A stretch of DNA of 60,153 bases, filler included, from Sphacelaria rigidula (taxonomy: Eukaryota), in NCBI GenBank assembly GCA_964200075.2. It is 9 parts of 9 records of this genome, joined end to end, with 100 filler letters (N's around TTAATTAATTAA, not from the genome) between each part and the next. Parts side by side here need not be neighbours in the genome. Positions count along the whole stretch, not along the records: positions 26,781 to 33,375 come from CAXNAA020019159.1; 8 more parts are not named here. One strand, given 5' to 3'. Shown here one piece after another: positions 7,611 to 46,865 of this stretch; position 1 is the first letter of the stretch; each line of letters starts with the position of its first letter. The translations under genes were made by a program, and so were the position numbers. The notes beneath the pieces were generated by a model. The model did no database searches and had not been told where the DNA came from. It worked only from the letters and a program-made list of their open reading frames with translations.

Positions 7611-7682
7611 ATATCCAGATATTATTCTCGGCACTCTGTTAGAGGAGTTTGGCTGTGAAAAAGGGGCGCAGCTGAAAGAAGT

Positions 7683-8930: not shown

Positions 8931-8953
8931 GAGCACCGTCTGCATATTCGACG

Positions 8954-12573: not shown

Positions 12574-12651
12574 TCTGGCGCATGCGATCTCGCCTTAGTC
12601 CTTGTCCGTTGTCAAGATCGTTCGTTTGTCTTGAACTCGCTTTGAGGGTGC

Positions 12652-13290: not shown

Positions 13291-13479
13291 NNNNNNNNNN
13301 NNNNNNNNNNNNNNNNNNNNNNNNNNNNNNNNNNTTAATTAATTAANNNNNNNNNNNNNNNNNNNNNNNNNNNNNNNNNNNNNNNNNNNNGTAGGGATGC
13401 GAGGTCAATGGTCTTATGACTATGGCATGCGTGATCATGAGTACATCCCCTCCCCTCCTACGGCCCCAGAATGAGGTTT

Positions 13480-13775: not shown

Positions 13776-13860
13776 ACGGTGTACGATTCAATACATCTTG
13801 ACGCTTCCGTGCAACGACACATCACCATACCCCGGGTGCCTACGACAGACCTTCACTTAA

Positions 13861-13958
13861 CCCTTAGACCGCGAAGTTAGTCTTCTGTTGAATCGGCATC
13901 AATTTCAAGTGAAAAAAATCATGCATGATCCAGAAAGACTACTCTCGCGGTCTAAGGG
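13861..13958. mobile_element. 98-bp piggyBac-type MITE
   Basis: Perfect 14-bp TIR CCCTTAGACCGCGA; flanks TTAA / TTGA; second copy at 27002-27107. Confidence 0.85.
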
Positions 13959-13974
13959 TTGAGAGCCACTTCTA

Positions 13975-14085
13975 AGAAGGGCCCAGCCGAGACCGCTCCG
14001 TTTTCACCGCCGCAATCCAAGACCGCAATGTCACAAACACCGGAAAAAAATGAAATTGGAAGCGCCCTGGGCACAGGGGAATCTA
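13975..14085 (+). mobile_element. 3' terminus of the Helentron/Helitron2-like family
   Basis: About 110 bp similar to 32233-32343: TGAAATTGGAA subTIR, GCCCTG-GGCA-CAGGGG hairpin, AATCTA|T. Confidence 0.8.
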
Positions 14086-16104: not shown

Positions 16105-17835
16105 TTAATCCTCTGAGAATGAGCTCCCTGGTCGCATGTGCAAGAACAGCCCCCCCCTGCGAGAGCAAATGCACACGAACGCGTGTATTTTTCGCATGCA
16201 CGCGCGAGGTCAAATACCTCCGCCGTTAGACCCGCGATGAGGGGGGCAAACTTGGAATATATACATGCGTGATGGAATACGACAAGAAAGAACACAAGAT
16301 AGGCGAAGACCACTGCAACCTAGACCACTGCAACCTAGACCACTGCAACCTAGACCACTTCAACCTCAGTACAGACTGCAAAAACGGTCAACAGTCGAGC
16401 CGTGAAAACTAAACAAGAAAATAATGACAAACCAAACAGGACGAATAGAACACACACGCACACACACACGCTATCCTTCTCTTCCCCCAGAAACACCGCA
16501 CCTATCGCCCCTCGTGATGCGGATGTCCTCGTCCTGGTACTTGAAATCTAGATACCCCACCCGTCCCTTGAAGGGCAGCCTTACGGGGATCGGTCCAAAG
16601 TTAACCCGTGCTCGTTCAATGGTAGCCTCCAGCCTTTTCGTTCGCGAATAAACGGGAAATATCACGCACGGATGACACTATCAAATCAAAAATAGAAGAG
16701 CAAGCATACTCTAGCTTGCATAGTCAAAGAAACATGAGGGCATGGAGAGAACAGAGAACGTATCACCAAACACAACGTCACTAAATATACAACAGACCAA
16801 CACGTCCAACCAGAAGGAAACATGCAGAAAGGAATAACAGGCGGAAAGGCTCGTTGAAGAAAAAGGAAGAAGGAAAAAAAAAAAAAACTATGGAAGAAAA
16901 TAACGGATTAAACAGCGAAACCCGAGCAAAAGCAACAAAGCAATAGCAAGCACAATAGGGAAAGGAAAATAATATTCAGAATAAGCTAAGGATACAAAAA
17001 GGCAGCATGTGTCAAAGACAAAGGAAGCAGAAAAAAAAAAAAGGAAAATCGGGCCGTAAAATACGACGCAAAACCTCCGCAAAAGCAACAAGACAAGCAA
17101 TAACAAGCACAAAAAGGAGACTAAAGAACGATAAAAGAAGCCGAGAAAATACATGATGAAAACAAAACGAAACAACAGCGGAGGGGCCAATCATGTTTGC
17201 ATGAATCATCAGGCAACGTCTGTACGGGAGCAGTGTAAGAAAAATAGTACCGGGACACCAAGTATTCCAGGGTATCTCGAGTACTCGACAACAGAAATAT
17301 CCGAGTACTCCAGAGCACCTGGGGCATCGACTGCCTAAAATACTGAGTACTCCAGAGTATTTGGAGGACCGACTGCTCCAAGTGCGCTCAGTACATCAGA
17401 GTACAGTACCTAGGGTACTCGACTACCGAAAGAGTACTCGACAACAGAAATCACGTAGTACTCCAGAGTACCTACCTTAGTCGATTGCCGACAGTTCCAA
17501 GTATTCCACAATTCTTGGGGCACTCGACTTGGAGTACTTGACTTCCAAAAATACCGAGTATTCAGAGCATCGACTGCCGGAAATACCCGTACACGGACAC
17601 CATCCTACCGAAAGCACCTTCGGTAACATGGGGGTACTTCATGTATATGGACAATGCCACGATGAACGCTGCGGGTGGGTCATCACCGTAAACCTCACCG
17701 GTCAGGATTGCTCGGCTTCACGTTGTAGGAAAGATCTGCCGATACCTTAACCTTGCCACCCCACAGCCTCACGAGGTTCAGAAATCTCTTCCGTTTCACG
17801 TCGAAGTTCTGGAACCCCCTGTCTCCGGGCATCGC
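16105..17835 (-). CDS. PAP/fibrillin (plastid-lipid-associated) family protein, last three exons: 17699-17835, 16502-16633, 16105-16156
   Basis: GT-AG junctions are phase-compatible and give AMPGDRGFQNFDVKRKRFLNLVRLWGGKVKVSADLSYNVKPSNPDR-LEATIERARVNFGPIPVRLPFKGRVGYLDFKYQDEDIRITRGDR-GGLFLHMRPGSSFSED*. GxLxxxYxDxxIRITRGxRGGLF is the fibrillin C-terminal signature. 5' exons were not found. Confidence 0.88.
16307..16366. repeat. 15-bp intronic tandem repeat (AGACCACTGCAACCT x4)
   Basis: Directly visible. Confidence 0.9.
17240..17592. repeat. Degenerate intronic array built from palindromic GAGTACTC motifs
   Basis: Repeated GAGTACTCGAC / GAGTACTCCAGAG / AAGTATTCC / CATCGACTGCC units. Confidence 0.75.
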
Positions 17836-17886
17836 CTGCATACCATCATACACGGTCAACGGGGTCAGAAAATACCATCATAACAC

Positions 17887-17887
<1 letters not shown>

Positions 17888-17928
<41 letters not shown>
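17888..17928. repeat. (CAA)n microsatellite
   Basis: Directly visible. Confidence 0.95.
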
Positions 17929-19944
17929 TAGATGTTTTTTTTCTCCACGATCCAGCGTTCTAGTCTTATAGTACCATTTTCGTTCCGCTATAACCGTGCA
18001 GCACGTTTCTTCAAGCACGCAAAACTGGAAGGGAAAAACAAAAACATTCACACACCCATGTGTATATCAAACTTCTACACCCGGCCCCGTGTCCTGATTT
18101 TTACCGTGCCAACATCACGTTACGTCTTGTTTGTCACAGAGGTGCGCACGTTCCAAGTTCACTTGTCCATGTACATATGTTCATATCATATACACTCAGA
18201 TACTGCAACACCCGCGCCATGCTCGCCCGCACACTACAGTCCAGCGCAGCGCAGTATAGGAAAGTAATGAAGATTTCCCGAAGTTCCTGCGTCCCAGACG
18301 TCTCCCAGGCACACGCTAGCACGCACTACCCCGTCCCGGAAATTACCATCGAAGACCGACTTGCACATCTTCCCTCCCGCCAAGTACGACAGACGTCTCC
18401 CAGCGATTCGCTGATTAAAAGGCTGCTCGACCCTCTCAAGTAAGTTTCGAGTGAAAGCCTACACGATTTGATTTCGTCACCCTCATCGCAAAAACATGGT
18501 AGCGGGCCCTGCCCTGCTACGGTCAAGACTCTGGACCTCGGTCAGGTCCTCGCTACTGCAGGTATGCGCAACAACATCATGTACAAGAGATACTTTAGAT
18601 GGGCGATGCTTGGGAAAATGAAAATTCACAGTCAACTTTTCAGAGTGAGAGGTCGGCTTGGAGCTCTACTCTGAAACCGATGTGCCTCTTCAAACTTCAC
18701 AACGGAACGAAAAGGAACTACCTCGACCCTCGCCACCATGGTCACAGGCACTTCACAGTCAATAAACCTTAACAAGCAAAGTGGGAGATCCATCAAGACT
18801 GTCGTGGTCATCACAATGGACCATTCACCAAGTAGCAACGCTTGGCATCGCAATCAGAGGACCTCCCTGGCGCCGCCATGGTATCAGCATTCGCTTTGTT
18901 TTGTTGCGTGAAAATTTCAATGTTCGGCGGGTACAAGACGTACCTTGGGTGCAGGTCCTCACTCTCGCCAGCCTCAGTTGTAAGAAGACGGTGTGAATGA
19001 TACGTAGTCTACAGCGCACAAGCAGTGCTACACCTGGCTGCATTGTCATTCCGTTAGCGGTCATGACGTCTTGCACCACGGTTATGGGTGGCATGTTGGA
19101 AAACCATTGCAATGCGGCTTTGTCTGTTCTTTCGAAGTGCTGCGGTGCTGTACTTTTGTCTGCAAAGTACCGCTGTACTTGACCGTACGGCAATGTTCTG
19201 CTGTAGGGTTCTGCATTGCACTGTATGTACTCTATTCTGCGCAGCACTACAGCACTACAGTGCTCCGTAGTGCACCCTAGTGCAGTGAACTAGGGCAAGT
19301 GCGGTGAAGCGTAGTATACGGTACGGTACGGTGCCGCGGGGTATGGTACAACACAGACTCGCTACTGTTACTGTACAGTCAGTGCTGTGCTGACCTATGC
19401 ATTCGAACTGGACACTGGCCGATCGCACATTTTGCGGGGGAACCTGCGGCCAATCACTGCGACAAAAAAAAAAACGTCAAACCACGTCACATCAGCTTCC
19501 GCTATGAACTTTTCAGCGTCCACTGTGAACTTTCTAAATCTTCCACTCTGAAGTTCTTCCACTCTGACCCTATGACGAAAAAAACATAAACCGAAACTCT
19601 CTAGTGTTTTCCATTGTCCAGGATGTGATCGACTGCCGAAACTAGCGACAGTCCCGTGGTACTCAAGCGTACCGACAGAGAAACTAACCATGAACCCATG
19701 AGTGTCTTGTACCCTGCCCTACCGTTAGTACCGATGATACTTTGAACCATGCAATAGAGATCCATGCTGCAACTATACCTTTTGAAGGGATGGTGACCCC
19801 TCCCCGTTTCTAGTGAAGCAAAGCACCCACTCCCCATCCACTTGGTCTTCGTTAAACCTGAGGAATGAAACATATATATGTATACATATATCACGGCGCA
19901 AGACGTTAGGAATTGATGTGTCCTCTTTTTTATCCACAGGTTAA

Positions 19945-19985
19945 CCCTTTTGGGACTGGGCCTCCAGAACGACCAACGAGGCAGA
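19945..19985. mobile_element. End of a piggyBac-type element cut by the contig end
   Basis: TTAA|CCCTTTTGGGACTGGGCCTCCAGAACG matches the reverse complement of 37943-37973. Confidence 0.75.
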
Positions 19986-20479
19986 NNNNNNNNNNNNNNN
20001 NNNNNNNNNNNNNNNNNNNNNNNNNNNNNTTAATTAATTAANNNNNNNNNNNNNNNNNNNNNNNNNNNNNNNNNNNNNNNNNNNNTTCTCTTCCCGTCTG
20101 ACGGGGGCGTCTTCATGTGTGTAGGATTCGCCTCAGCCCAGAGGGGGGGGGGGGGACGTCATGAATCACCCGTTCAAAAACAGTGTGAATCCTCACGTAT
20201 CCGACCGTTGGCTCCGGTCTGGAGATTGCGCTGAGCGCAGTCGCACTAGCCTCCACAAGAACCTAAGCCGACGCGCGGATACAACATGCCTCCCCTACGC
20301 CCTTTCCCGCCACACCGATGCAATCCATTCCGTAGGGGCAAGACACTTCCGTGCACATGTGACCGACAGCTTAGTCTCGGCTCCAATTTCGGCATCCAAT
20401 CCTCTTCGTTGACACATGACTGTACTCTTCACGTATTCATTCATTCACCGTATGTTTCTGTATCCCTTTCATCGCCACT

Positions 20480-21150
20480 ATTTTGACGTAGCATCCATCA
20501 TGTAACTCGGCGTCATTAGCCGCCTTTCCCCGATGAGGTCTCTACTCACTCCTCTATTCCGTGCCCTGACCAGGCTGCGGATCCCACTTCCACGCCAATC
20601 AGCGAAAGCTTCTGACACCAAACCGCAAATAGTATTTACTCGTACCTTCTTTTGCAACATCCGTAAGGTCATTCCTGCTGCGGACGAGTGTGTCGTGCCA
20701 CCGATGCGAATCTCTGCAGGCGTTAGGCCAGCCAACGCCACCACCTGCCGCAACGTAGTCACCGCATCATACCGACGTCATATAAAAATTCCCCCGTTGT
20801 TCCAGATACCGTACGTCATCAGCGGGGCATCGACCGGGAACGCTTCATCAACTGACAGGAGCTTCAGTACTAGCGCGACCGTTCCGCCCCCGTCTCGAAA
20901 TGCCAACGGAAATCCCAAGCGAACACGCGTCACGACCGAATGGGAACTGACCCCTACGGGTTCCCGGAGACGCACGTCCGCCCGATTTGCCGTACCCCAA
21001 TCACGTCGGCGCAACTGCGTCTTTTCCTCATAAAATACCGTATCACCTCTACGTACAAGTTTACTGGGTGATAAGAACGAGACAAGATGAGTATATATCC
21101 TGTGTGATCTCATCAAAAGGAAAAGGAGGCACAGATACCCAACCACAACA
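20480..21150 (-). pseudogene. Tyrosine recombinase (YR) remnant
   Basis: LCLLFLLMRS, VRRGDTVFY...WGTANRADVRLR, APLMTY, LRQVVALAGLTPAEIRIGGTTH (cf. HSLRIGGAT). Confidence 0.85.
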
Positions 21151-25825: not shown

Positions 25826-26807
25826 GTTTATTTCTAGTGGCACCATCACGCTTCCAGTGACATGAACTAGGCTGTGTTGAGAAGTACCCGTGTCTATCGG
25901 GATTCGGACCCGCAACGCTCCGCCGTATCTAGCTATGGGTGAGCCAGGTGGACCAAGGGGGCGCGGCGGCAGTACACGTGCAAAAAACGAAGCAACACTG
26001 CGTGTTCTCACCAAGAGCAACCGAAGAGAAGCAGATTAATGTATATCGTTATTTTGCGAGTTACGCACGCACTCCTCTCTACCGTAAAGTGGCAAAAAAT
26101 CACGAGGTATTATGTTTCTTGGGCGCTGCCCAAACGCTATTTCAGAGGGCCCTCAGAGAGCCAATGCGTTTTGTGTATCACACTTTATCGTCCTACTTTC
26201 GAACCCTTTCGGAGCAACTACCTGTTGGGATACTTTCCAGACTATGTTGACAGTTTCCGGGGGGGGGGGGGGGGGGGGGGAGGCGGAAGGGGCTGTGTGA
26301 GCCATCTTGTCGCTTTCGCTCTCTAGGATAATCTGAGCGGCCTGCTGCCCCAGGGACACTCTTGCGTCTCACCTCAGCAAGCCGAACACCAGACGGATTG
26401 ATCTACCTTTCCCCCGAGAAACCTGTTTAATCGTGCTGAGCTCCGGTACCATGGTTCGTGTCCGCCCCCTGTCGCATTTCAGCACATACAATGGTAACGA
26501 ACATACAGGCAGAGTAACTGATCCTCGAGGGATCCACCCAGCCATGACTGGTCATTATCCACAAGATGGACGTACTCAACGGAAATGCTGGCTGAAGAAA
26601 ATCCGACAAAGGGAGAAGGAGATGGAAAGAAAAGAGGGGAGGGCGTACTCATTTGTTGCTTGCCTTAGTCGTGTGACCATNNNNNNNNNNNNNNNNNNNN
26701 NNNNNNNNNNNNNNNNNNNNNNNNTTAATTAATTAANNNNNNNNNNNNNNNNNNNNNNNNNNNNNNNNNNNNNNNNNNNNATTCACCTGCAGAAAAAAAC
26801 AACAGCT

Positions 26808-26953
<146 letters not shown>

Positions 26954-27001
26954 ACACATGTGTGCAGCAGCATACGTGAAAAAAAAACGAAAGGTTGTTA
27001 A

Positions 27002-27107
27002 ATCCTTAGACCGCGAGGGTACTTCGTCCATTTGGATCATGCATACTTTTTTTCGAGTGAAAATTGATGCCGATTCAACAGATGACCTACTCTCGCCGTC
27101 AAAGGGG
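27002..27107. mobile_element. piggyBac-type MITE, inverted copy of 13861-13958
   Basis: TTAA on both sides; internal TGGATCATGCAT...AAATTGATGCCGATTCAACAGA shared. Confidence 0.8.
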
Positions 27108-27290
27108 TTAACAAAAACGTCAGCTTCATAGAAACACAAACGCGATCATCATCTCGCATCAAAAGCCGTTTCAAGTTACAATACGTATATCCCTAGCACG
27201 AGCGACCACCGATACTGTAGTAGGTACTGGTGCTTCACTTGGGGATGTGTACCTACGCGTGCTGTCGTAAATTTCCGCTGTTCCGTGGTC

Positions 27291-27560
27291 GATCCGGTGG
27301 CTCAGTGGGTAACCTCGAAAACTTCTGACGGTTGGGTCGTGGGTTCGAATATCGGTGAAGTGAAGTCACAAGATCAGGATATTTTTTGTCTTACACAAAT
27401 GCCCAACATTGGAGAGCGACGACAGACAGTATGTCGTGGGTACACAGAATTCGATGTCACGGTCGACGAGGGCAACGGACTTGCTGAAAACTTCTCGCGA
27501 TAAAAAAATAAAAGGCAAGCACCGCTGAAGGAAGGTGTAGCACTGAAAACAAAAACAAAT
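27291..27560 (+). mobile_element. tRNA-derived SINE family B (3' end approximate)
   Basis: A-box TGGCTCAGTGG (27298) and B-box-like GGTTCGAAT (27342) at tRNA spacing, with no closing acceptor stem; followed by a body and A-rich sequence. Confidence 0.7.
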
Positions 27561-27672
27561 ATAACTCCTGTGTTGGCCTTTCTCCTGTGTGACACCGGCT
27601 GATGCGCCCACACACACCGAAAGTAGTAGGCTCGTGTCCAGACTAGATGGGATGACAACACACACACCGTAC

Positions 27673-27731
27673 CTGTGTGGGCCCTTCGAAGTCCAGGCAT
27701 CGAGGCAAATGCTACATCGCTCACCATCCTC
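27673..27731 (-). CDS. RFWD3: Internal exon of an RFWD3-like RING E3 ubiquitin ligase
   Basis: 59-bp exon TGCAG|...|GTACGG encoding EDGERCSICLDAWTSKGPHR, matching the RFWD3 RING start CxICLxxWTxxGxHR. Other exons were not found. Confidence 0.68.
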
Positions 27732-28359
27732 CTGCAGCAGATCAAAGAGCACAGCGACAGACACATGTTTACGAGTTAGGTCATGATCTGCACTTTTTGT
27801 TTTTTTGCAGCGTTCTACTTTCGTGTGCTGGGGTCACAATCGGTTACCTCTGGACAGAACGATAAACAACACAATCCCTTACCGGGGAAGATATCATCGG
27901 GGACTCAGTCGACCCGACGCAACGACATTTTCCGGGTAAAAATAAATAGAACGCTATGTATTGTCGCATGCGTCACGCAACAACACTTTCAGGTTAGGGG
28001 TGTTACAAACGAAGCAACTAAAAAAAAATCCCCTCAATATTTAATTTTTCTTATCCCCGACTTGCCCCAAAACACAGATAGTTGAAAGGAATTTTCTCTG
28101 CTAAATTTCAGGAGAAATATACAGTTAGTCTTCAATTTTGATCTAGGGCCTGATCTGGTTGATAAATCTGCTCACATTATTCGCAACACATATTTGTTCT
28201 TTTCTTCCGAATAATTCGGAGATTTCGGGCGAAAAAATACACTCGTTAGTAACATCCCGTAGCTGTCAGTGATCGTGATCTAAAATCATATTTTGATCGC
28301 AATTCTGTTCAATTGTTATTTTTTTTCGTTTTTTTTTTGTCGCCTGCCTCACTTTTGAC

Positions 28360-28675
28360 TCCTCTCTCTCTTTTCTCGTAACGAGTCCGTAGTCTCGAGG
28401 GATCAATCAACTCATCTATCTCTACCTCCCCCCCGGGAAGTACTGTACACGCCTCTACATTATGCTGTCGCGGATTGGATTAGCACTCACCCCGCACCGC
28501 GTAGACTGCCGTCCGAACAAACTCAATTAAGAAAAGAAAAAAAAAAACAGGCACATCGTTTCTGCTACTCACGTCCTTGCGTTTTCAATGACGGTAAACA
28601 GATACTGCTGAGGAGGAAAAGGCCCAGATAGATACGCGCATCCGACGAGAATCGAACCCGCGTTTTTTGTCCTAA
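28360..28675 (-). mobile_element. SINE family A copy whose head runs into the 21-bp minisatellite
   Basis: Body matches 34378-34790; B-box GGGTTCGATTC on the minus strand at ~28649-28659. Confidence 0.75.
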
Positions 28676-28800
28676 CTCATCGTATCAGTTGTACAACTCA
28701 TGGTGTCAGTTGTATAGTAGTTGTACAACTCATGGTATCAGTTGTACAACTCATGGTATCAGTTGTACTACTCATGGTATCAGTTGTACCACTCATGATA
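28674..28800. repeat. 21-bp minisatellite, left part (~6 units CTCATGGTATCAGTTGTACAA)
   Basis: Head-to-tail units with no spacers. Confidence 0.95.
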
Positions 28801-31800
28801 TTCCAATTTCACAAAGTGAAGTTGGTGTCTGCTGCGGGTAAAAATTCGACCAAGAGATTTTTTGCGACTCCGTTCTTGCGTCGTGATTCTTGCCTCGTGA
28901 TTCTTGCGATCGGATCTTTGAGATAGTTTTTTTGCTAGATTTTTCCAGTCTAAACCCTTACCGATTTCGGTTTTTTGGGGATAACTTCGTCAAGCGGACA
29001 CCAAACGCATCCTGCTCCAAGGGGCACCTGGACACACAGCAGTTGCCGCTGTCTACCTTGTATGATCCTCCAATCGAAGTCTTGAGTGAGAACCCCCAGC
29101 GTTTGGTGCTCATGTACAAGGAAGGGTGATCTTCATCTATCTAGTATCATGCTCCAAAACCTACCTGACAGGGGGGCAACACCCCCAAACAGACAGCAGT
29201 AATGCTAGCGAATCCCACGTCTTGAGAGTCTGTGACAGTCTGGCAGCCGGCAAGGTGGTTATGGTAGTGTCCTTCTCGCAATGTCAACTTACAGAGCACT
29301 GGAGCAGAGTTTGCTGGTGGATTCATTTGGTCTAGTATAGGAAATCTGTAGCACTGGAGATCGCTCGGTTCTCGACACAGGAAGCAAAACGGTCCACGGC
29401 ACTTGACAGCCCCCCGCATACACACAACATCTAGGGGACCTAGTTTGATATTTTGCTGGCGTCGCGTCAGCGTCCCGAAAATCCCTCCCCAGAGCGGAAA
29501 ACACCTTGTTTTAGTACATTTGGGTTATTTGCGAGTCAGCATCGCGCTCAAACGCGAAAACCAAACTAGACGACGTAGCTTGGGTGTGTGGGAAGCGCAC
29601 GCAAGAAACCGCAGTCCAGTCCTCTGCTTCAGTGTCGAGTTGTAAGCGTTGCGCGATCGGCACTTTTGGGTTGAGGATCAGTAGCGTCTTTCGAGGTCGA
29701 AGATGGCAAATTCAAAAAAATCGGTGCGCACACTTCTCTTCCTGCGGCAAGCAAGTTGTGACAACATGCACTTTGGTTGAGGCGCTGCTTTGTTCTTTGC
29801 GGCTGTGCACAAAAGACAAATTCACCTTTCAACGGCGAGTATCCTCTGAAGTGTCGTATTTACAGAGGGATAGTTGACAAAAGTAGGACAAAGCTGGCGG
29901 CTGCTTCATGTCAGGGCTCCAGTGCAGAAGCCAAGGCGTCGAGAGCGATTTTAGTACGATTATGTGCGTTACATCTGCTGGCGACCGCGGTCATGTATTT
30001 AGAAACTGTCTGTATATACTACCAATAGTATCAGAATCAGAATGAGATGCAAACTATGCGATGTTCGACAAGCTTCGTTTTGAGCTACGTGTTTTTTTTC
30101 TTGCGGCGAGCAGTGTGTGACGGATGGCATTTCACTTTGTGGCTTGTCACCAGGTGCTGCTTCGTTCTGTACGGCTGTGCACAAAGGGCAAATCCGTCTT
30201 TCAACAGCGAGTACCCTTCATGTATCGAGTTGCAAAGAGCGAGGTCACACATAAACTTCGGCTGTTTTGTCTGAGGGTTCCAGCGGAGAAGCCAAGGCGC
30301 CAAGAGCCATTTTGATTTCAGACTGCGCGCCATGTACGCCTAGGTCGGCAGAGCCATGATGTTTCAAGTGACGGCCTGTACATGCTGAAAATGCTGATCT
30401 GGACAGGGAGAACCAGACCGTGCCCAAGCGACTGACATGATGGGATTCCTTCCACTGATGCCATGGCTCTGACCCCATGGGACCCACGAGAAGTTCACTC
30501 TCCAATCCCGCAGTCATAGCCGTGTGTAGGACATGCAGCGCGTAGCCAATCGGCACAGCGTGAAACTCTTGATAATGAACAACATCAGCATCGTTCTCAG
30601 TAGTTTTTGGATGCGCGACGCTGCTGCTCATGATCTCCATATGTCCGTACTTTCTCGTTTTAGCACCATGTCAGGCACGCCTCTCACGGCAGTTACGTTG
30701 TTGTGTAGCGGCCACAGCAGCTGCTGTTCGTGCTCTTGTCTTGTTATCTTCACAATGACGGTAAACGTGGGGTGGCAGCTCGGGGACGTGTGCTTCCTGA
30801 CTGGTACAGACAGATGCAGGATACTCGCTTGTGCAACAAGATTGTCCATGTACTGATGTGGGGCGAGCTTTCCGGAGGAACAAAATCACCTCAACACCGA
30901 CCGCTCCCAGGCTTGAATAAATGTACTAGAGATATAGTTCATTTCTTATCAGCCAAATCGTCATTTGTAGTTGACGCGTGTACTTTCCATTGATATGATT
31001 CGTTGGATTACGGGCCACTGCTGACGCATGTAGCGTTCAGCTTGCACTTTCCATGAATATAGTGACTAAAATCGGCCCCCAGTACTACCCATAACTGTAG
31101 CGCGTGGGTAATTTCCCGCCTACATGTTTGCCGTAGATACAAGCGGCTGCGTTCATGATGTGTTGAACTGCATATGACAACGCGAAATCAATGCAGGACA
31201 GGAATGGGATAAGGGTGTCACGTCCTGCGGTGTGCTTTGTCACCCTGCACCCTACCGCTGTGCAGAGAGCAGGTAGTACCGCCGAATGCCTCACGATGCG
31301 GTTGGTACACAATAGTAGTATCGGCTCCACACCCGTAGGGTAACCTCTGCATTGAATTGAATAAAACGCATTGAATTAAATTACACGCGCGGAGAGCGTT
31401 ATGTTCAAGCAGCACGCGCGCTAGCGTTTTCCGTGTTGTCAACATCGTGCCAGCGCGCTTGAGCCTAAAGCGCTGTACTCCCCTGTGGCAGCCCGTCACG
31501 GTAGTGCTCCTCATGTTTCATCACGCTTTATTCGAAAACACGCAGAAGAGATGCCAGCGAGTCCATCGTTGTTGCACATGGATTCTGGTGAACCAGTTGT
31601 TCTTCTATAGAACCCCAGCATGCTGTGTGTTGTACCAAATACTGTAGTATACCGTACCGGTTCAAAAACGGATACTGTATGCATTATATATAGGCCATCG
31701 ACATGCTCTGGTTATCATGAACTCTGTACGAGGCGCGGGGAGCGTAGTTTTTGTCATGGAATGCTAGGACGCAACCATACTGCAGTACAGGCAGTATGAA

Positions 31801-32343
31801 ACACGTGATTCGAACGAGACACAAGACGAAATATGTACATTACGCTACATACGTGGGCGTTTTGGTACTGAAACGAGTCCACCAGTCCCTCCACTGCCTA
31901 TCGTACGAAGATAGCAAGGGACGAATCAATGATTCGACCGGAAATTATTCGGTTTTTAGTGTAATTGATTCATACCGTATGAATCGACCATTAGGCTTTG
32001 TTTTCAGCTTTACAACCCAGGTACGCGTAGCCCAGGCACGTGGAATGGCGCAAAAGTTGCGTGGAGACCTGTTTGACCAGCGGTCGACTTTTTTTCTCTC
32101 TTTCCAGCAATCAGGCTTAAGAAATCGTGGATTTGGTGATTCGAATCGACGATGATTCGTCCGAACCATGGAATATAGATACCACGTGTAAATGACAAAA
32201 TACGCTACGGGCAGACGTTTTCACTTTAGAGTAGAAGGGCCCAGCCGAGACCACTCCGATTTCACCGCCGAAATCCGAGACGGCAATGTCATGAACACCG
32301 AAATAAATTGAAATTGGAAGCGCCCTGGACACAGGGCAATCTA
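28801..32343 (+). mobile_element. Non-autonomous Helentron/Helitron2-like rolling-circle element
   Basis: 5' TTCCAATTTCA is the reverse complement of subterminal TGAAATTGGAA (32309-32319). 5' hairpin CCAATTTCAC-AAA-GTGAAGTTGG; 3' hairpin GCCCTG-GACA-CAGGGC then AATCTA. Inserted at A|T with no TSD. Related sequence at 13975-14085 and 53560-53705. Confidence 0.75.
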
Positions 32344-32750
32344 TGAATTGTACAACACAAGGTGTCAGTTATACCACCCATGGTATCAGTTGTACAACTC
32401 AGGGTGTTAGTTGTACCACTGATGGTGTCAGTTGTACAACTCAGGATATCAGTTGTACAACTAATGGTATCAGTCGTACAACTCATTGTATCAGTTGTAC
32501 CACTCATGGTATCAGTTGTGCAATTCATGATATCAGTTGTACAATTCATTGTGTCAGTTGTACCACTCATGGTGTCAGTTGTAGTTGTGCAACTCATGGT
32601 ATCGGTTGTACAACTCATGGCGTCAGTTGTACAACTCAAGGTGTCAGTTGCACAACTTATGATACCAGTTGTACAACGCATGGTACCAGTTGCACGACTC
32701 ATGGTACCAGTCGTACAACTTAGGGTGTCAGTTGTACAACTCATGGTGTC
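32344..32750. repeat. 21-bp minisatellite, right part (~19 units)
   Basis: Same unit and orientation as 28674-28800; it resumes in register after the insertion. Confidence 0.95.
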
Positions 32751-33475
32751 CACCCTCGGGTGGGCATGTCTGACGGGTGGAGCGACTCGAAGCGCTGCAC
32801 GAAACTAGGAATAGCGAAGTGCATGGATGAAAGATTCCTTCCTGTCCTCTAGGGACAGAAAAAAAAAACATCGGAGCTTTGTATAACACCCCCGGTGATA
32901 ATATCCTCGACCATCGTGGGGACGATGCCAGTATTTTTACCGAAAACGGTATCATGGGTAACTTGACTGCTACCTATGTGCACGTTGTGAATACCTCGCT
33001 GACGACGGTACCCTAGAGTGGCTAAAAAAGACGAAGTTGTACACCTGTACTCTTCTCTGTCATTGCCCCCCTGTTTATATGTACCATAGTATGTCATGTT
33101 CCACTCACCCCAGGTGTTGGTCGTGCCCACGCCAATATTTTCCCGTTTTCGTCTCCGGTGTACACTCTGGACTCTCCAGCTACAGAAACCACCGCCAAGG
33201 CATTTATACGACTGGGAACACGCAAGAAAGAAGAAAAAATACAGGCGGATCAATGTGGGCAAAGGATTCAAAAAAAGGGGGGAAGGGGGGGGGGGGGGGG
33301 GGGACCCATGATCATGGATGCCCCAGTCATCAGGCCATTGACCCCGCCTCCCTCCGAAGCCGGGACGGGACCCGCNNNNNNNNNNNNNNNNNNNNNNNNN
33401 NNNNNNNNNNNNNNNNNNNTTAATTAATTAANNNNNNNNNNNNNNNNNNNNNNNNNNNNNNNNNNNNNNNNNNNN

Positions 33476-34790: not shown

Positions 34791-36967
34791 TCACCCAATC
34801 GCACTCGCACGGGTCCTCAATGTTCTGGACTCGAAGTTTAATTTCCGGCACCGCGTTGCGGCGCGCGACCCCCGCTGCGGCGGTACAACGCTCCCTTGCC
34901 ATTGTGACGATCTCTAGCGTGGACCCCGCTGTGCCCGTGAGGGCATGGTCCACATTCCGCTGGGGATGGGATCAGGGTTGGGTTTGGGTTTGGGGCTGAG
35001 ATTCGGGGCAGGGTGAGACGGGTTGGTGGACAGGGGGTGGCACAAAGGGACCAATTTGTAGACGAGCGGGGACACTTCGGTCAAACAAACTTGTGGATCC
35101 GTGCGGATGATGTGTGTTAGTGAGAGATTCCGTTGGATCAGCACTCCCGCCACAGTCCGTCCACTCGGTACTTTTCCTCGGTTTTGGCCTTTGTCTTCAA
35201 AGTATTACTTCTTCGATAGGAAAAAAATGCAGTGAAAAGCAAAAAATTTGGTCTGATGAAATTGTCATTTCAACGTGAATTATGCGTGGACATGAAATGA
35301 CCACCCTGTCGTGACCTCATCACATCAGAATAATTGTTTTCCGCCGCACTTTTTCGATCGAAAAATATTGTTTTTAGACACATCCTCACTTTTTTTTGTT
35401 ATTTTGGGACACAGAACAAACCGCATGGTATGTGACGTGCGAGTGTGGAAGCCATCTCGTCTTGCACAAGGGCGTCGGGGATTAATATCACAAACATAGT
35501 CCACAAGATCAAGAGACACCTGAGATCTAGGTCGCACGGCGAATATTGCTCCATCGTAATACATCGGGGCTACCGAACACAAGACGGTCTGCTATCTCTC
35601 AACCGCATCCTCTTGGATCTTGGGACCCCAGACGAATTCCGTGCGTCACCCTTAGGAAGCTTGACATGACGAGATCTGGTATAGAACAGTCGTGAGAATG
35701 TGGACCAGTTTATGAAAGTATCCAAACATGGGACAACTGAATTCCTGATTTTCTTCATTCTTATCTTTTGCGCGAATCATACGCGCGATTCATACAAAAT
35801 TTGTGATTCATACATACGCCGGATGTCGTCATCGAAATCGGAAAACACTATTTCGATACGCGCTTTAGGCAGGCCACGGAGGCGCAGCGGTTATCGATCG
35901 ATTGAGTCATTAATTGATTGTCGCACTTCAACTGACCCCCCAGGAGTCATGATCCAACCGTGGTCACATGATAGACGTACCCGAAACAAAAACAAGGCTG
36001 AAACATTCGCTGGAAAAAAAAAAAAAAGAGAATAACAGAATAGACTAAGTGGAAAAAACAACAAAGTACATGATTTTCCTCATATGCATGCAAAAAGCCG
36101 AATCGAAGCCATCAGTCATCCACAGACGTTTCAAGTGCCCCGAACCCACACAGCTCTCGTTCGCATTCCTCCCATACTGAGTTGTAAATGGCTCGCAAGT
36201 GCAACGCTTCTGGACGAACGGGTATATCCCCCCCCCGATCCGGTCGCGCCCGGACAAGCTTCGACTCTCGACCCGATGCAACCGCATCCATCTCTGCGGT
36301 CCAGAACATAGGAATACGGCTCATTCACGATCCGCAAAACCTCAGACCAAGCTACACTCGGCACTCCCAGTCTACGCCAATTCGTCGTCGACGCAGCCCG
36401 AGATTGATACACTCCGGAACCGCTACGCCATAATTCCCAGGCCAAACCCTAACCTTAGGTCCAGCCCCAGAAAAGCCGAAAGCATTCGGACAATCGGGTG
36501 AGCGTGGTGGGCACGCTAGCGAGCGCTCGGGACTGTCAGTCTTCGAAATATCCGCCCATCGGACAGATCATGATCTGTCTGGAACAACCAATCCAAGAAA
36601 GACTCTCGAATCTGTTGGTCCAATAAACACAAAATATGTGACCGCGGAATCAGGAAAGCCAAAGCGCAACTTGTGCGCTACTCGGTGTGCTCGGCTGTCG
36701 GCGCTGTTGTGAGCAAACATGGGAACAGGGGCCAAAAGATCCGGATCATGATCCGAATCAGCTTACTGACAAGAATTGATTTTCAGACGGATCTTGATTT
36801 GTCTGACGTGTGGAAATATCCAACATTCCAGCGTCCCCACTCACTCCTCGATGTTGGGAATTACAGGGTCGTCGCGCTCCGGTGGTGTACCCGAGTACGA
36901 ACCCGGGTAAAAAGCATTACCCTCGGTGAAGATGGAGAAGAGAGTTGCGATCCCAGCCCAGCGTTAA

Positions 36968-39883: not shown

Positions 39884-42800
39884 TATACCTTATTTGACGC
39901 GAGTCGATTATTGGGCTTACGCGACATTATTTTTCCTATGCAGTACCACTATGAAAATCATTTTATCTTTGACACTGTTCCGGGGGGGGGGGGGGGGGGG
40001 GGGGGGGGGTTGTTTAGTAGTTCATACCATAGTAACTAAACTATTGCCCCCCCTCCCCCACCCAGCCGCGNNNNNNNNNNNNNNNNNNNNNNNNNNNNNN
40101 NNNNNNNNNNNNNNTTAATTAATTAANNNNNNNNNNNNNNNNNNNNNNNNNNNNNNNNNNNNNNNNNNNNGAAAGGGTGACCGATGTTCAAAGATACGCG
40201 TAATAATGGGTAAAACAACTCGGGCAAGCAAAAAGTAGCTACACCCCCCCCCCTCCCCCCCCTACCATAGCATGACTCAGACACCAATACATTACAACTA
40301 AATTTCATTGCCACAACGTGACCAACCGTCAACCAGAAGTGGCGTGCAAAAGCCGCCCAGTCGTGTGAGCTGTTCCTGGTTCCTGGACAAGGTGTACCGC
40401 CTACACAGCCAGTGAAACTTCGACAGCCAACCACACAGCAGTAGGAAGGCACTGTCTCGCTCATTGAAACGCATGTAATTACTTTTCAACCTTTCAGGCT
40501 TGATGTGACGCGGGAAAGGAGAATAGATAATACATAGCGTTGCGGGTGTGCTTAACTAGAGAAAGGGAGGGGAAGGATCACGGGTAATTCAAATACTACC
40601 CGAATTTGGGCCGATCTCACCTGCAAAGCAACCTGTCCTCCACTAAAGAAAATGTACAGGGCGAGTCTGATGATCCTGCTTCAATATCCTCAACCTCACT
40701 CCGTGCGCACTCCATACCGTCCTTCGTGACAACCGACGCCTTCCTACGCGTTCCGCCCGATGATTCGGCTCCCTCCTTCTGCGAGCGAACATGCCAATCT
40801 ACACCCCCCAACATCTTGCTCGGAAGCAGCTGCGGCCAGATGACACCCCCGCGGGATTCGATCAGCCGCTCCACAGCTTGTTCAGAGTTTCCCCTGGGAT
40901 GATTAACTTTCCCTGCTTCCTACGCACGAGGAAAGACAGTCGTCCGAGCTTTCGTGTTGGAAGTCTGTACCTTCAGAGACGAGTATGTATACATTAGACA
41001 TCATCAACCCGCGATAACTTTGATGAAGCCTCGTGTTGCATCCGCATGGCTTCTCGCGAGGATCACTCTGACAGAATATCGAAGGCGCAACTTTCCCATG
41101 CTGCCACATCCTTGCACCTACGCATGGGTTCACCAAAACCAACTTGCACTGTGTCTCATCGCCCGTGCGAACGGAGAAACTCCATGCCTTGGATACGATA
41201 CAACCTTCTCGGCTATGCTCATACAGTGGCGCGGTCAAACGAAACATGTGCAGAGACCTACTGCTCTTTATAAGTATCATCATGCAAGAGCTTGAATTCA
41301 CACGATGATGTCCAAATCGCCAAATCTACGTGTATGGCCCTGGCATTAGTGCCTGTAGCCCGTAGATCTGTGGACAGCAAAATACATTATAAATGCTAGC
41401 CAAGCGGTACGACGGAATAATCGCCGGAGTTGTCAACAAAGACTACGATCGTTCAACCAACCCGGGAGCCTAAATATCATCAAAACACTCGACGTGCGCA
41501 GGTGAATAGGGTGATATCCAGGGAGTGTGTACGCGCCAAATTTGACGTCGTCAAGGAACCCAACCCGGACACTAACGCAGCTGGGATGTAGCGCAGTATC
41601 ACAAATCACGAATCCATGTACACTCTCACCTTTAGGTCATGCCCGATTGTTTCGCTCGGCACTAGGCCGGGAATACACATCAATGGAAGAGCGGCATCCC
41701 ACAGCACCTGCGGAAAGGAAAAGAAAAACACATTGGAGCCGAACGCGGGCAACGCAGGTCTTCATGCACAGTCAATCAGGCTCACACACTCCGATAATGT
41801 CACAATGGTGTGGATAGTATCGCTTGTGCAGTTCGCCTTACTTCTGCACAACTGTTTCAAGATTGCGCACAAATCCCTACGGCTACGTGCAAGGTCATCT
41901 ATGTTTGCCAAATCTGACGACGCGGGCAGTCCCTGCGCGAAATGTGACGACCTCTAGACGTAGAGCGATGCATTGAAAGTTATTTTTTACCCAAGAGAAA
42001 GGCACTACAAGAACATTGCCGCTTGTGATACGTCCATACGATGTTTTTCCACAATTGTTAAATCAAAATAACGCTGACCAGTGTTATATTCACAAAAAAA
42101 CACGGAAGGAAATGGTCGATAAGACACTGACCGAAGACGGCATTCGCTTTGCACGCGTCCGTCGCCCGGTTTCGCCTCCTTCCTCTGGATCCGATGCCAG
42201 ATTATTCAGCATTCCAAGCGCCTTGTTCCCTTCTTCACGGCATGTCGGAAATGCCTACCTCAACAACGGTGCCGGGAAGGGGGCGAAAGGGCGAGAAAGG
42301 TTGAAATTGTATAACGCTCGAGCAACGGTGTCTCCAGCACAGAAGGAACGAATATTTGTACCTCTCAAATTACAACACTGAATGAAAGCGGACAATTGGC
42401 CAAGCATCGATCGAAGACACGGCATGACAACTAGCACGTTCAGGGGACGACGAAAAACGGCCCAATGCTACAAATATTGTACTGTAACTATTTGTCAGAT
42501 ATTTGTTTCGCAGTTTCTTGGGATTTACTCAACCCAATATTCAATTCAGATTTCAACGCAAAATCCCGCATATTGTTGACTTCGTGCTGCAAGTAAGTAG
42601 AAGGACTGAAAACACTAGCTATAACGAGGGTAACGAGCGTAGTCAGGTGAAGTAAGGAAACACTGCATGCTCAGCGAAGAAAGCAACATCCCATCGACAG
42701 CAACATGACCAGAGACACTAGCTGGATGCCAGAACCAGGACACACGCCCATCACCCGAGCAAACGGTTTCCGCGCAAAGCAAGAGCTACAAACCACGGCC

Positions 42801-46625: not shown

Positions 46626-46865
46626 TGCAAATTACAAACCCGCCCATAGGCTGGGGCGACACTTTCTACGATAACCTCCCCCCAAAACCAGCTCAAAAGT
46701 GTCACGAAAAAAATGGCCATACAATGCCTGATGTTTGGATTCAGGCTGCATGAATCGCCTCATATNNNNNNNNNNNNNNNNNNNNNNNNNNNNNNNNNNN
46801 NNNNNNNNNTTAATTAATTAANNNNNNNNNNNNNNNNNNNNNNNNNNNNNNNNNNNNNNNNNNNN

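What the first reader, a model, noticed from the sequence alone, without database searches (positions are those of the whole stretch)
28801..32343. Helentron/Helitron2-like rolling-circle element with both termini intact
Seen: the first 11 nt (TTCCAATTTCA) are the exact reverse complement of an 11-mer 24 nt inside the other end. A partial inverted copy next to the 5' repeat forms a hairpin. The 3' end has a perfect 6-bp stem-loop then AATCTA. The flanking minisatellite resumes in register at A|T with no duplication, and the 3' region recurs on two other contigs. Known: asymmetric TIRs, a 5' partial inverted repeat, a 3' hairpin and no TSD characterise Helitron2/Helentron/DINE-1 elements. Inference: a non-autonomous family with an unusual AATCTA end (not CTRR), which canonical TC...CTRR Helitron searches would miss. 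No Rep/helicase is visible here.
Basis: partly seen in the sequence, partly recalled or inferred. Interest (0 to 1): 0.8.

Follow-up and report, generated by a model that had tools for sequence, protein, structure and literature searches.

The report
Gene-less Helitron2-type transposon in an alga
A 3.5-kb non-coding jumping element that interrupts a short tandem repeat has the end structures of the Helitron2 group of rolling-circle transposons and occurs in hundreds of copies in what is probably a brown alga, so it is a credible but fairly ordinary new family of a known kind.

Summary
Window 28801-32343 is a 3543-bp block that splits a 21-bp minisatellite exactly in register. Its first 11 nt are the exact reverse complement of 32309-32319, 24 nt from the other end. 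A 10-bp hairpin overlaps the 5' repeat, and a perfect 6-bp hairpin followed by AATCTA closes the 3' end. This layout matches, point for point, the published definition of Helitron2 (HLE2) termini.

Contigs of four public runs show that the whole block is a high-copy repeat. The 3' boundary at 32343/32344 is sharp: 117-126 contigs per run continue into unrelated AT-rich flanks. There are also a few head-to-tail junctions. A second, diverged 3' end lies at 13970-14085 and stops at the same base.

Three caveats apply. TAT occurs at both junctions, so a target duplication of 0-3 nt cannot be excluded. No Rep/helicase partner could be sought, because no genome is held.

The interior carries a decayed ~100-aa fragment of a brown-algal, probably hAT-like, transposase on the opposite strand.

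Verdict: a non-autonomous Helitron2-type element (about 0.6), a new member of a known kind.

The parts
28674..28800 (.). Left part of the interrupted 21-bp minisatellite (unit AACTCATGGTATCAGTTGTAC, containing the 10-nt palindrome GTTGTACAAC)
   Evidence: register test
28801..32343 (+). The inserted element, 3543 bp. The boundaries may shift by -2 to +1 nt because TAT is present at both junctions.
   Evidence: high-copy family in four runs
28801..28811 (+). 5' asymmetric terminal inverted repeat (ATIR), TTCCAATTTCA, 0 nt from the 5' end
   Evidence: I6
28803..28825 (+). 5' hairpin: 10-bp stem (one T.G position) and 3-nt loop, overlapping the 5' ATIR
   Evidence: dG -6.2 kcal/mol, z -2.8
28801..28850 (+). 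Conserved 5' module. In other copies the sequence after 28850 is skipped by 79-149 nt.
   Evidence: table 5 (joints from 28850 to 28930/28970/28971 in all four runs; to 29000 in 3 of 4 runs)
28873..28908 (+). 14-bp tandem repeat (2.6 copies) inside the variable stretch behind the 5' module
29780..30313 (+). Internal diverged direct duplication (29780-29952 matches 30152-30313 at 72-83%)
   Evidence: (D5, D6)
30278..30691 (-). Decayed ~100-aa fragment of a brown-algal protein family, probably a hAT-like transposase. Only this piece of the protein is present in the window.
   Evidence: fold lead
31914..32180 (+). Nested insertion of a much more abundant small repeat (inverted ends GACGAATCA...TGATTCGTC, about 31921-32161). 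It is absent from some other copies of the family. Relatives lie at 36552-36803 (-) and 53559-53711 (+).
   Evidence: (depth about 10x its neighbours; joints 31905/31914 to 32220; loose ends behind 32167 in 236-274 contigs per run)
32220..32343 (+). Conserved 3' module, shared with the second copy at 13970-14085
32309..32319 (+). 3' ATIR, TGAAATTGGAA, 24 nt from the 3' end and 2 nt upstream of the hairpin
32322..32337 (+). 3' hairpin: perfect 6-bp stem GCCCTG/CAGGGC, loop GACA, followed by AATCTA (32338-32343)
   Evidence: dG -7.0 kcal/mol, z -3.2
32344..32750 (.). Right part of the interrupted minisatellite, resuming in register
13970..14085 (+). Second, diverged copy of the 3' module on another piece of the window. 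It has the same ATIR (14051-14061), a 5-bp hairpin, and ends at the same AATCTA followed by T. Upstream lies an unrelated palindromic small repeat (13857-13960).

Best explanation
Window 28801-32343 is one copy of a non-autonomous (gene-less) Helitron-like element of the Helitron2 / HLE2 type. It belongs to a family of a few hundred to about a thousand copies in what is probably a brown alga.

Shown:
- The block is an insertion into a pre-existing minisatellite.
- It carries the two asymmetric terminal inverted repeats and both hairpins at the positions that define Helitron2 termini.
- The family has a base-sharp 3' end followed by unrelated AT-rich flanks.
- The family has a conserved ~50-nt 5' module, a conserved ~125-nt 3' module and a variable interior.
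- A few head-to-tail junctions exist.

Inferred (from published models, not tested here):
- A Rep/helicase (HUH-Y2 nuclease plus Pif1-like helicase) encoded by an autonomous relative elsewhere in the genome nicks the + strand at the 5' end.
- It peels the strand off 5' to 3' and stops at the 3' hairpin. Bao & Jurka propose that pairing of the 5' and 3' ATIRs marks this end point.
- The strand is circularised and pasted into an AT-rich site next to a T, with little or no target duplication.

The interior is passenger material: a decayed fragment of a probably hAT-like transposase gene, an internal duplication, and a later nested insertion of an abundant small repeat.
For: Ends and hairpins. They match the definition read in PMC3627910: ATIRs of 8-15 bp (here 11); 5'-ATIR 0-2 bp from the end (here 0-2 under three of the four possible boundary readings; the fourth, starting at 28802, cuts off its first base); a 5' hairpin that uses the ATIR (here 28803-28825); 3'-ATIR 20-30 bp from the end and just upstream of the hairpin (here 22-25 nt); 5' T.

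Positional chance: 1 natural pair of 340 exact 11-mer inverted pairs has both hairpins.

Insertion: register is restored only by removing 3543 nt.

Family: 17,237-21,063 contigs per run lie on the stretch. Between 117 and 126 contigs per run carry loose ends behind 32344, with consensus agreement of only 0.36, meaning many different flanks. Contigs joining 32344 back to 28800 number 2, 2, 1 and 0 in the four runs. Joints start at 28850 in all four runs. 118-123 contigs per run cover 28827.

Second copy: it ends at the same base, with an identical ATIR while neighbouring bases differ.

No coding capacity: the 38 ORFs of 50-109 aa and the four longer ones inside the element give no Pfam family beyond one weak sub-threshold hit.

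Helitrons with non-canonical ends in AT-rich sites are already curated in a brown alga (PMC12477816, supplementary file 1). Helitron2-like elements of Fusarium insert at T|A, with the same one-base boundary ambiguity (PMC5148889).
Against: No Rep/helicase was found. None is in the 60-kb window, and the genome is not held, so the defining enzyme link is untested.

A 0-3 nt duplication (TA or TAT) cannot be excluded at the one full-length insertion.

The focal target is A|T, T|A or T|G, depending on the parse. It is not the T|T reported as usual for HLE2 (PMC11417382).

No loose-end row for the 5' boundary appears among the rows shown (5587 rows were not shown). The 5' end in other copies therefore rests on five junction contigs and the joints at 28850. 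These were obtained at 80% likeness, a level at which the tool itself warns about repeats.

Depth along the element varies about tenfold even outside the nested repeat. Parts of the interior are therefore shared with other families, or the block is a mosaic.

The 3' bins are about 2-3 times deeper than the 5' bins. That also fits 5'-truncating retroelements.

A DDE-type (probably hAT-like) transposase fragment lies inside the element.
Confidence: 0.6

Rival explanations
1. It is a non-autonomous retroposon: a LINE-dependent element sharing a ~125-nt 3' tail with a stem-loop that a LINE reverse transcriptase recognises. It would be copied by target-primed reverse transcription into AT-rich DNA, often with 5' truncation.
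For: The 3' bins are about 2-3 times deeper than the 5' bins. The 3' end is sharp and carries a hairpin. The consensus of the 3' flanks is A-rich. The second copy in the window is only a ~117-nt 3' piece. RTE-type LINEs and their dependants are abundant in Ectocarpus (PMC12477816, main-text Table 1).
Against: The full-length copy has at most 3 nt of duplication. Neither window copy has a poly(A) or short-repeat tail. The loose-end consensus agrees at only 0.36 over 30 nt. By my arithmetic, that caps A at about 50% in the first nine positions, so there is no regular A tail. A defined 5' end that is complementary to the 3' subterminal 11-mer and folds into its own hairpin is not a retroposon feature. 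Head-to-tail junctions exist. 5' truncation with 3' overabundance is also published for Helitron2 elements of Chlamydomonas (PMC3627910).
Confidence: 0.12
2. It is a cut-and-paste or otherwise unclassified DNA transposon that duplicates TA or TAT at its target. The hairpins and the 11-mer would be binding sites for an unknown enzyme, so it is not a Helitron.
For: TAT stands at both junctions. In most copies the alignment runs through ...AATCTAT before it breaks, which could be a fixed target. The head-to-tail string ...AATC-TA-TA-TTCC... equals two elements each flanked by TA. Many Ectocarpus families remain 'DNA/Unknown' or 'Unknown'.
Against: The extreme ends are not inverted repeats of each other: TTCCAATTTC... 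at one end against ...GGGCAATC at the other. The only inverted repeat is asymmetric, 22-25 nt inside the 3' end. No matching transposase is in the window.
Confidence: 0.13
3. It is a deletion derivative of the transposon that encodes the brown-algal, probably hAT-like, protein whose fragment lies at 30278-30691 (-). That enzyme would then move elements with these unusual ends.
For: A ~100-aa remnant of the family lies inside the element. The family has many diverged, mostly short copies in brown-algal data: 73 proteins at E <= 0.001. This is as expected of a transposon protein. The best structural match of a longer member is the Hermes hAT transposase (Z 8.3, rmsd 3.7, 154 residues aligned; the next row has Z 6.6).
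Against: Only one small piece of the protein is present, and it is degenerate: the conserved C is replaced and FFMGP reads LLVGP. The element has no 8-bp duplication and no terminal inverted repeats, which I recall as defining for hAT. The fragment sits in one of the least deep parts of the element, so it is not the core of the family.
Confidence: 0.05
4. It is not one element. The block would be an assembly chimera or a pile of unrelated nested repeats, and the end features would be coincidence.
For: Depth varies about tenfold along the block, and more than 50-fold with the nested repeat. Pieces of the interior recur alone elsewhere: 31108-31313 at 52935-53138 (-) and 32032-32182 at 53559-53711. 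The assembly is fragmented into ~6.6-kb contigs.
Against: The minisatellite resumes exactly in register. The 11-mer pair with both hairpins is unique in the control. The 3' boundary is shared by more than 100 contigs per run. The joints from 32344 back to 28800 tie the two ends together in other loci.
Confidence: 0.05

Closest known systems
Non-autonomous Helitron2 elements (e.g. Helitron-1N1_CRe, Helitron-1N2_CRe and CRe-1/2/3 of Chlamydomonas; Bao & Jurka 2013, PMC3627910, passages read)
   Same: Short asymmetric terminal inverted repeats. The 5' one sits at the very end and folds into a hairpin; the 3' one lies 20-30 nt inside, just before a hairpin. The element starts with T and has no coding capacity. 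3' ends are more abundant than 5' ends. Targets are AT-rich or T-rich.
   Different: No sequence similarity was tested, because no library was available. The target here is next to TA|T in A-rich flanks, not TTTT|T/C. The element is 3.5 kb long, against ~0.66 kb for the N1/N2 families. The RepHel partner is unknown.
DINE-1 / HINE elements, non-autonomous Helentrons (Thomas et al. 2014, PMC4067079, passages read)
   Same: Subterminal inverted repeats of 12-15 bp, an inverted repeat next to the 5' one, a short 3' stem-loop, internal tandem repeats, no coding capacity, high copy number, and no target modification.
   Different: In HINEs the 3' subTIR lies 38-60 bp from the end (here 24 nt). They insert in TT and carry T runs at their borders, which are not seen at this insertion.
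FoHeli1/FoHeli2 of Fusarium oxysporum, Helitron2-like (Chellapan et al. 2016, PMC5148889, passages read)
   Same: Asymmetric terminal inverted repeats. The insertion site is not T|T (TNAT|A there). There is the same one-base ambiguity over whether the element starts TC or TTC. Tandem or adjacent copies are seen.
   Different: Those elements are autonomous and carry RepHel; here no protein is present. The host is a fungus, not an alga.
Curated Ectocarpus Helitron families: Helitron-3_Ec32 ('possible Helitron2?', AACA-CTTGT, T|A) and Helitron-N2/N5_Ec32 (CTAG-T right end, AT-rich sites, non-canonical left end A-TA/A-TG) (PMC12477816, supplementary file 1)
   Same: The host is a brown alga. The elements are non-autonomous and about 0.6-3.8 kb long. 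Their ends are non-canonical. They lie in AT-rich insertion sites with a T after the right end. TSD is 0.
   Different: The end letters differ (here A|TTCC...TCTA|T). The library sequences could not be read (the .fa supplements are not held), so homology was not tested. The curators' notes do not mention ATIRs or hairpins.

Membership tests
Helitron2 / HLE2 (terminal definition of Bao & Jurka 2013) | [quoted passage not shown] | tested here: met
   An exact 11-bp pair at 28801-28811 and 32309-32319. It lies 0-2 nt from the end under three of the four possible boundary readings; the fourth (start at 28802) clips its first base.
Helitron2 / HLE2 | 3' ATIR about 20-30 bp from the 3' end, immediately upstream of a hairpin | tested here: met
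   It lies 24 nt from the end (22-25 depending on the parse). The hairpin 32322-32337 starts 2 nt after it.
Helitron2 / HLE2 | 5' hairpin that involves part or all of the 5' ATIR | tested here: met
   28803-28825, 10-bp stem, dG -6.2 kcal/mol; 3 of 200 shuffles fold as well.
Helitron2 / HLE2 | No target site duplication | tested here: inconclusive
   The register allows 0-3 nt because TAT stands at both junctions. There is only one full-length insertion, and no empty site was available.
Helitron2 / HLE2 | Insertion between T and T (stated as usual for HLE2 in PMC11417382) | tested here: not met
   The focal site reads ...ATGA-TAT-GAATTG, which contains no TT. Published Helitron2-like families also deviate: TNAT|A in Fusarium and TTTT|T/C in Chlamydomonas. 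This feature is therefore a tendency, not a definition.
Helitron2 / HLE2 | Both termini conserved and linked across copies | tested here: inconclusive
   The 3' end is met: 117-126 contigs per run break at 32344, and the second window copy ends at the same base. The 5' end has only indirect support: joints from 32344 to 28800 in 5 contigs over 3 of 4 runs, and joints starting at 28850.
Helitron2 / HLE2 | Autonomous partner with an HLE2-clade Rep/helicase sharing the termini | not testable with these tools
   No genome is held. No RepHel is in the window. Pattern scans of the prokaryote and viral collections gave 0 hits. The metagenome scan gave 5 chance 20-mer hits.
Canonical Helitron (HLE1) | 5' TC and 3' CTRR ends | tested here: not met
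   The 3' end reads ...AATCTA (or ...TCTAT...ATCT or ...AATC). None of the four parses ends in CTRR. A 5' TC is possible only under the parse that starts at 28802.
hAT superfamily transposon | 8-bp target duplication and terminal inverted repeats (recalled definition) | tested here: not met
   The flanks ACTCATGATA and TGAATTGTAC share no 8-mer, and the extreme ends are not inverted repeats. The probably hAT-like protein fragment inside is partial and decayed.
Non-LTR retroposon (LINE/SINE-like) | Variable target duplications of several bp, an A-rich or short-repeat tail, and ragged 5' ends (recalled definition) | tested here: inconclusive
   The focal copy has at most 3 nt of duplication and no tail, and the second copy has no tail. 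The distribution of 5' ends over copies could not be read.

The most novel reading that the evidence does not exclude
The family may represent a brown-algal lineage of rolling-circle elements that combines Helitron2-type termini (ATIRs and two hairpins) with a TA|T-type target in A-rich DNA and a ...TCTA end. It may have been active recently: 1378-1738 of the laid contig pieces per run are at least 99% alike. It may form head-to-tail dimers with a fixed junction.

A bolder reading is that its driver is not a classical RepHel. The driver could be the uncharacterised, probably hAT-like brown-algal protein whose relic it carries. That would be a new pairing of enzyme and end structure.
Probability: 0.08. 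Interest if true: 0.65.

Novelty: new member of a known kind. Interest (0 to 1): 0.3.

Why it matters
Brown-algal transposons are poorly classified: the Ectocarpus curation still lists 94 'Unknown' and 51 'DNA/Unknown' families. Its Helitron notes call several non-autonomous families 'highly tentative' because their left ends could not be fixed.

This copy sits in a minisatellite, which acts as a ruler. It therefore fixes both ends to within 3 nt and shows the full Helitron2 terminal layout. That gives a search template (an 11-nt ATIR at the 5' end, and an ATIR plus hairpin within 25 nt of the 3' end) for classifying such families and finding their autonomous partner.

Beyond annotation, the finding is ordinary. 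Helitron-like elements, including Helitron2 types with non-canonical ends, are already known from algae, fungi, plants and animals.

Tried and rejected
- Whole-genome search: no genome is held for this window.
- Metagenome scan with a 20-mer of the 3' end: 5 loci, all matching over only 20-32 nt, so chance.
- 30-nt pattern of the 3' end in prokaryote genomes and in viral contigs: 0 hits each.
- Earlier findings of this scan: nothing for this genome or sequence. The eight findings listed under 'Helitron hairpin' (five hold both words) concern other genomes and were not used.
- Recovering other 5' ends as spurious ORFs spanning the terminus in the 5.8-billion protein set: no candidate.
- Longer relatives of the internal protein family: none among proteins of 761-2170 aa. 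The tool itself calls this weak evidence.
- Profile of the family against PDB sequences: 0 hits at E <= 10.
- Pfam on family members: nothing at or below E 0.01; only two chance-level rows at E about 0.1.
- First structure model (12 sequences): pLDDT 47.6, unusable. Foldseek on the second model: nothing at E <= 0.001, with Hermes only at rank 21.
- Extension of the second copy upstream of 13970: the alignment score equals that of shuffles (33 against a mean of 32.7), so it was rejected.
- RNA: no listed holder among the sequencing runs is on record as RNA. No Rfam family and no tRNA were found in the window.
- The .fa libraries of the Ectocarpus paper cannot be read here, so homology to curated families is untested.
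- Copy numbers derived from summed contig depth are rough. The tool warns that this depth is not a copy number.
Full report
**What the window is.** The 60,153-nt window is not one locus. It is nine pieces of about 6,595 nt joined by 100-nt linkers of the form N44-TTAATTAATTAA-N44. The finding lies on the fifth piece (26781-33375). No whole genome is held.

The organism is coded in the run table, and one run is labelled 'algae metagenome'. Proteins related to an internal ORF come from brown algae: Sphacelaria, Ectocarpus, Pylaiella and Hapterophycus. The host is therefore probably a brown alga.

**The observation.** All sequence statements hold.
- TTCCAATTTCA at 28801-28811 is the exact reverse complement of 32309-32319. 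From there 24 nt remain to 32343.
- The 5' 11-mer pairs with the sequence just downstream into a hairpin at 28803-28825: 10-bp stem, 3-nt loop, DNA dG -6.2 kcal/mol, and 3 of 200 shuffles fold as well.
- At the 3' end, GCCCTG-GACA-CAGGGC (32322-32337) forms a perfect 6-bp hairpin (dG -7.0; 0 of 200 shuffles fold as well). AATCTA follows.
- The block interrupts a 21-bp minisatellite (28674-28800 and 32344-32750). Among excision lengths 3530-3556, only 3543 restores the 21-nt period (14/21 and 33/42 lag matches, against at most 8/21 and 17/42).

An exact 11-nt inverted pair somewhere in 3.5 kb is not rare; the element has three. The position is what is rare. Of 340 exact 11-mer inverted pairs in the window outside the minisatellite, 15 have a hairpin on the 5' arm and another just after the 3' arm. 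Fourteen of those are the artificial linkers, and the fifteenth is this pair.

**Two corrections to the observation.** First, 'no duplication' is not established. TAT stands at 28799-28801 and again at 32342-32344, while the bases outside it differ. The same empty site...ATGA-TAT-GAATTG..., therefore follows from a duplication of 0, 1, 2 or 3 nt, and the element may start at any of 28799-28802. Published Helitron2-like elements of Fusarium show the same kind of one-base ambiguity (PMC5148889, passages).

Second, only one of the two recurrences elsewhere is the 3' terminus. 13970-14086 matches 32225-32344 at 89% identity, carries the identical 11-mer (14051-14061) and a 5-bp version of the hairpin, and ends at the same AATCTA followed by T. 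Upstream of 13970 the similarity is no better than for shuffled sequence. The other recurrence, 53559-53711, matches 32032-32182, which is a different repeat.

**The family in public reads.** Logan contigs of four runs (at most three samples and two studies; possibly including the source of the assembly) were laid on 28741-32403 at 80% likeness or better.
- Between 17,237 and 21,063 contigs per run lie on the stretch. In X1, 1738 are at least 99% alike, 4461 are 95-99%, 8020 are 90-95% and 6844 are below 90%.
- Individual diverged contigs have a depth near 70 in X1. The summed depth per bin runs from about 18,000 to 190,000. As a rough guide only (the tool warns that this is not a copy number), that means a few hundred to a few thousand copies of each segment.
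- The bin 31939-32061 reaches about 990,000.
- The 3' boundary is sharp. Between 117 and 126 contigs per run have loose ends behind 32344, with a median loose length at the cap and consensus agreement of only 0.36. That means many different AT-rich, A-biased flanks.
- An agreement of 0.36 over 30 positions leaves room for at most about 50% A in the first nine positions (my arithmetic). There is therefore no regular poly(A) tail.
- No loose-end row for the 5' boundary is among those shown (5587 were not shown). Three observations still bear on it. First, 118-123 contigs per run cover 28827. Second, joints start at 28850 and skip 79-149 nt in 3-4 of the four runs, so a conserved 50-nt 5' module is followed by variable sequence. 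Third, 2, 2, 1 and 0 contigs join 32344 back to 28800. That is a head-to-tail junction reading ...AATCTAT|ATTCCAA..., with at least 44 nt on the shorter side and, in X1, about single-copy depth per contig.
- Joints from 31905/31914 to 32220 show copies that lack 31914-32180.

Together this gives a family with a ~50-nt 5' module, a ~125-nt 3' module and a variable interior. The 3' ends are about 2-3 times deeper than the 5' ends.

**The interior.**
- No ORF of 50-109 aa (38 tested) and none of the four ORFs of 110 aa or more inside the element has a Pfam family. The one exception is a weak, sub-threshold C5HCH row.
- There is a 14-bp tandem repeat at 28873-28908.
- There is a diverged internal duplication, 29780-29952 against 30152-30313.
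- 31914-32180 is a nested insertion of a far more abundant small repeat with inverted ends GACGAATCA...TGATTCGTC. Relatives lie at 36552-36803 (-) and 53559-53711.
- 31108-31313 recurs alone at 52935-53138 (-).

Unexpectedly, the 141-aa minus-strand ORF at 30245-30670 has 38 relatives at E <= 0.001 among 1.84 billion representatives. The best is 65% identical and comes from Sphacelaria rigidula. The family is conserved (RIGC.LH.LH...GPLG.G.WHEW...). Longer members of 270-494 aa continue with KFIRPAETRWMV, NPLMRVHAKF, WAYNW.RGEGG.F and PIHQQLVE..FS. A profile search found 73 members, the named ones all from brown algae and none with a Pfam domain.

Only the ~100-aa piece 30278-30691 (-) is present in the window, and it is degenerate.

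What the family is remains only moderately supported:
- ESM-Atlas leads at 0.84-0.85 point to hAT dimerisation and FAM200/GTF2IRD2 clusters.
- An AlphaFold model of a 477-aa member has mean pLDDT 68.7.
- Foldseek finds nothing significant with that model.
- An unbiased scan of 48,161 chains puts the Hermes hAT transposase first: 8edg_A, Z 8.3, rmsd 3.7, 154 residues aligned, model 3-247 on chain 278-433. The next row has Z 6.6. The tool cautions that helical models often reach such Z values.
- The motif resemblance to hAT (C..H.L, TRW, E..FS) is my recollection, not a test.

I read the fragment as passenger or nested material. The element has neither an 8-bp duplication nor terminal inverted repeats.

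**What it is.** Bao & Jurka (PMC3627910; passages read) define Helitron2 termini as follows. The ATIRs are 8-15 bp long. The 5' one lies 0-2 bp from the end and pairs with downstream bases into a hairpin. The 3' one lies about 20-30 bp from the end, upstream of the 3' hairpin. The element prefers a 5' T.

Every one of these features is met here. They also report 5' truncation and 3' overabundance for the Chlamydomonas CRe families. They propose that pairing of the two ATIRs marks the end point of rolling-circle replication.

DINE-1/HINE elements have the same plan with slightly different distances (PMC4067079).

The usual T|T target of HLE2 (PMC11417382) is not met at this site. However, Fusarium Helitron2-like elements use TNAT|A and Chlamydomonas ones use TTTT|T/C.

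In Ectocarpus, 13 Helitron families are curated. They include a 'possible Helitron2?' and several non-autonomous families with a T after the right end, AT-rich sites and uncertain non-canonical left ends (PMC12477816, main-text Table 1 and supplementary file 1).

I therefore read the block as a non-autonomous Helitron2/HLE2-type element (confidence 0.6). The mechanism (nicking by a trans-acting Rep/helicase, strand displacement, termination at the 3' hairpin, circle formation, insertion next to a T) is inferred from the literature and was not tested here.

**Rivals.**
- A LINE-dependent retroposon (0.12) would explain the excess of 3' ends and the A-rich flanks. It would not explain the defined, self-complementary 5' end, the lack of a tail, the duplication of 3 nt or less, or the head-to-tail joints.
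- A TA- or TAT-duplicating DNA transposon of unknown class (0.13) cannot be excluded from one insertion, but the extreme ends are not inverted repeats.
- A derivative of the hAT-like transposon (0.05) and an assembly or mosaic artefact (0.05) are unlikely, for the reasons given under each rival.

**Novelty and score.** Helitron-like elements with Helitron2 termini and non-CTRR ends are known from green algae, fungi, animals and plants. Helitrons are already curated in a brown alga. This is a new member of a known kind.

Its practical value is that the minisatellite fixes both ends to within 3 nt. That gives a template for classifying tentative brown-algal families and for finding the autonomous partner. 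Interest: 0.3.

The supplementary .fa libraries of PMC12477816 could not be read. They might show that this family, or a relative, is already curated.

Noticed in passing
window 6596-6695, 13291-13390, 19986-20085, 26681-26780, 33376-33475, 40071-40170, 46766-46865, 53460-53559: Regular 100-nt linkers (N44 + TTAATTAATTAA + N44) split the window into nine pieces of about 6595 nt. Features on different pieces are therefore not neighbours in the genome. The linkers also produce false inverted-repeat and hairpin hits.
   Followed up: yes
window 7356-12903: A decayed LTR retrotransposon. Its 253-bp LTRs (7356-7608 and 12651-12903) are 89% identical. It carries gag zinc-knuckle (7998-8930), reverse transcriptase (10027-10428) and integrase (11395-12051) remnants on the + strand.
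   Followed up: partly
window 31914-32180; 36552-36803 (-); 53559-53711 (+): A very abundant small repeat with inverted ends GACGAATCA...TGATTCGTC. Its summed contig depth is about 10 times that of the surrounding element, and 236-274 contigs per run break behind 32167. One copy is nested in the element. Its class and target duplication were not resolved.
   Followed up: partly
window 13857-13960 and 27001-27111 (-): A ~105-nt palindromic MITE-like repeat (ends AACCCTTAGACCGCG...CGCGGTCTAAGGGTT), with 80% identity between the two copies. One copy abuts the second 3' module of the Helitron-like family.
   Followed up: no
window 30278-30691 (-); proteins P0001-P0104: An uncharacterised protein family of brown algae: 73 members at E <= 0.001, no Pfam domain, and some members annotated 'expressed unknown protein' in Ectocarpus. 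It is probably a divergent hAT-superfamily transposase. The top structural match is Hermes at Z 8.3, with a C-terminal motif PIHQQLVE..FS.
   Followed up: partly
window 6483-6595, 6696-6808 (inverted), 13391-13467, 33287-33375, 56704-56818: Several pieces begin or end in the same ~70-115-nt repeat (80-92% identity). This suggests that the assembly breaks at a common dispersed repeat.
   Followed up: no
window 28674-28800 and 32344-32750: The host minisatellite has a 21-nt unit containing the perfect 10-nt palindrome GTTGTACAAC. The insertion lies in the non-palindromic half of a unit. Just left of the array (28640-28665), the sequence resembles the T-arm of a tRNA on the minus strand, but ARAGORN finds no tRNA.
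   Followed up: partly
window 29629-29859 (-) and 30085-30339 (-): The two copies of the internal duplication translate on the minus strand into similar Cys/His-rich stretches (YS.LK..F..CAQP.RTKQ.L). A + strand ORF here (30084-30254) gives a weak C5HCH Pfam row (E 0.0056, below the cut-off). This may be another captured gene fragment.
   Followed up: no
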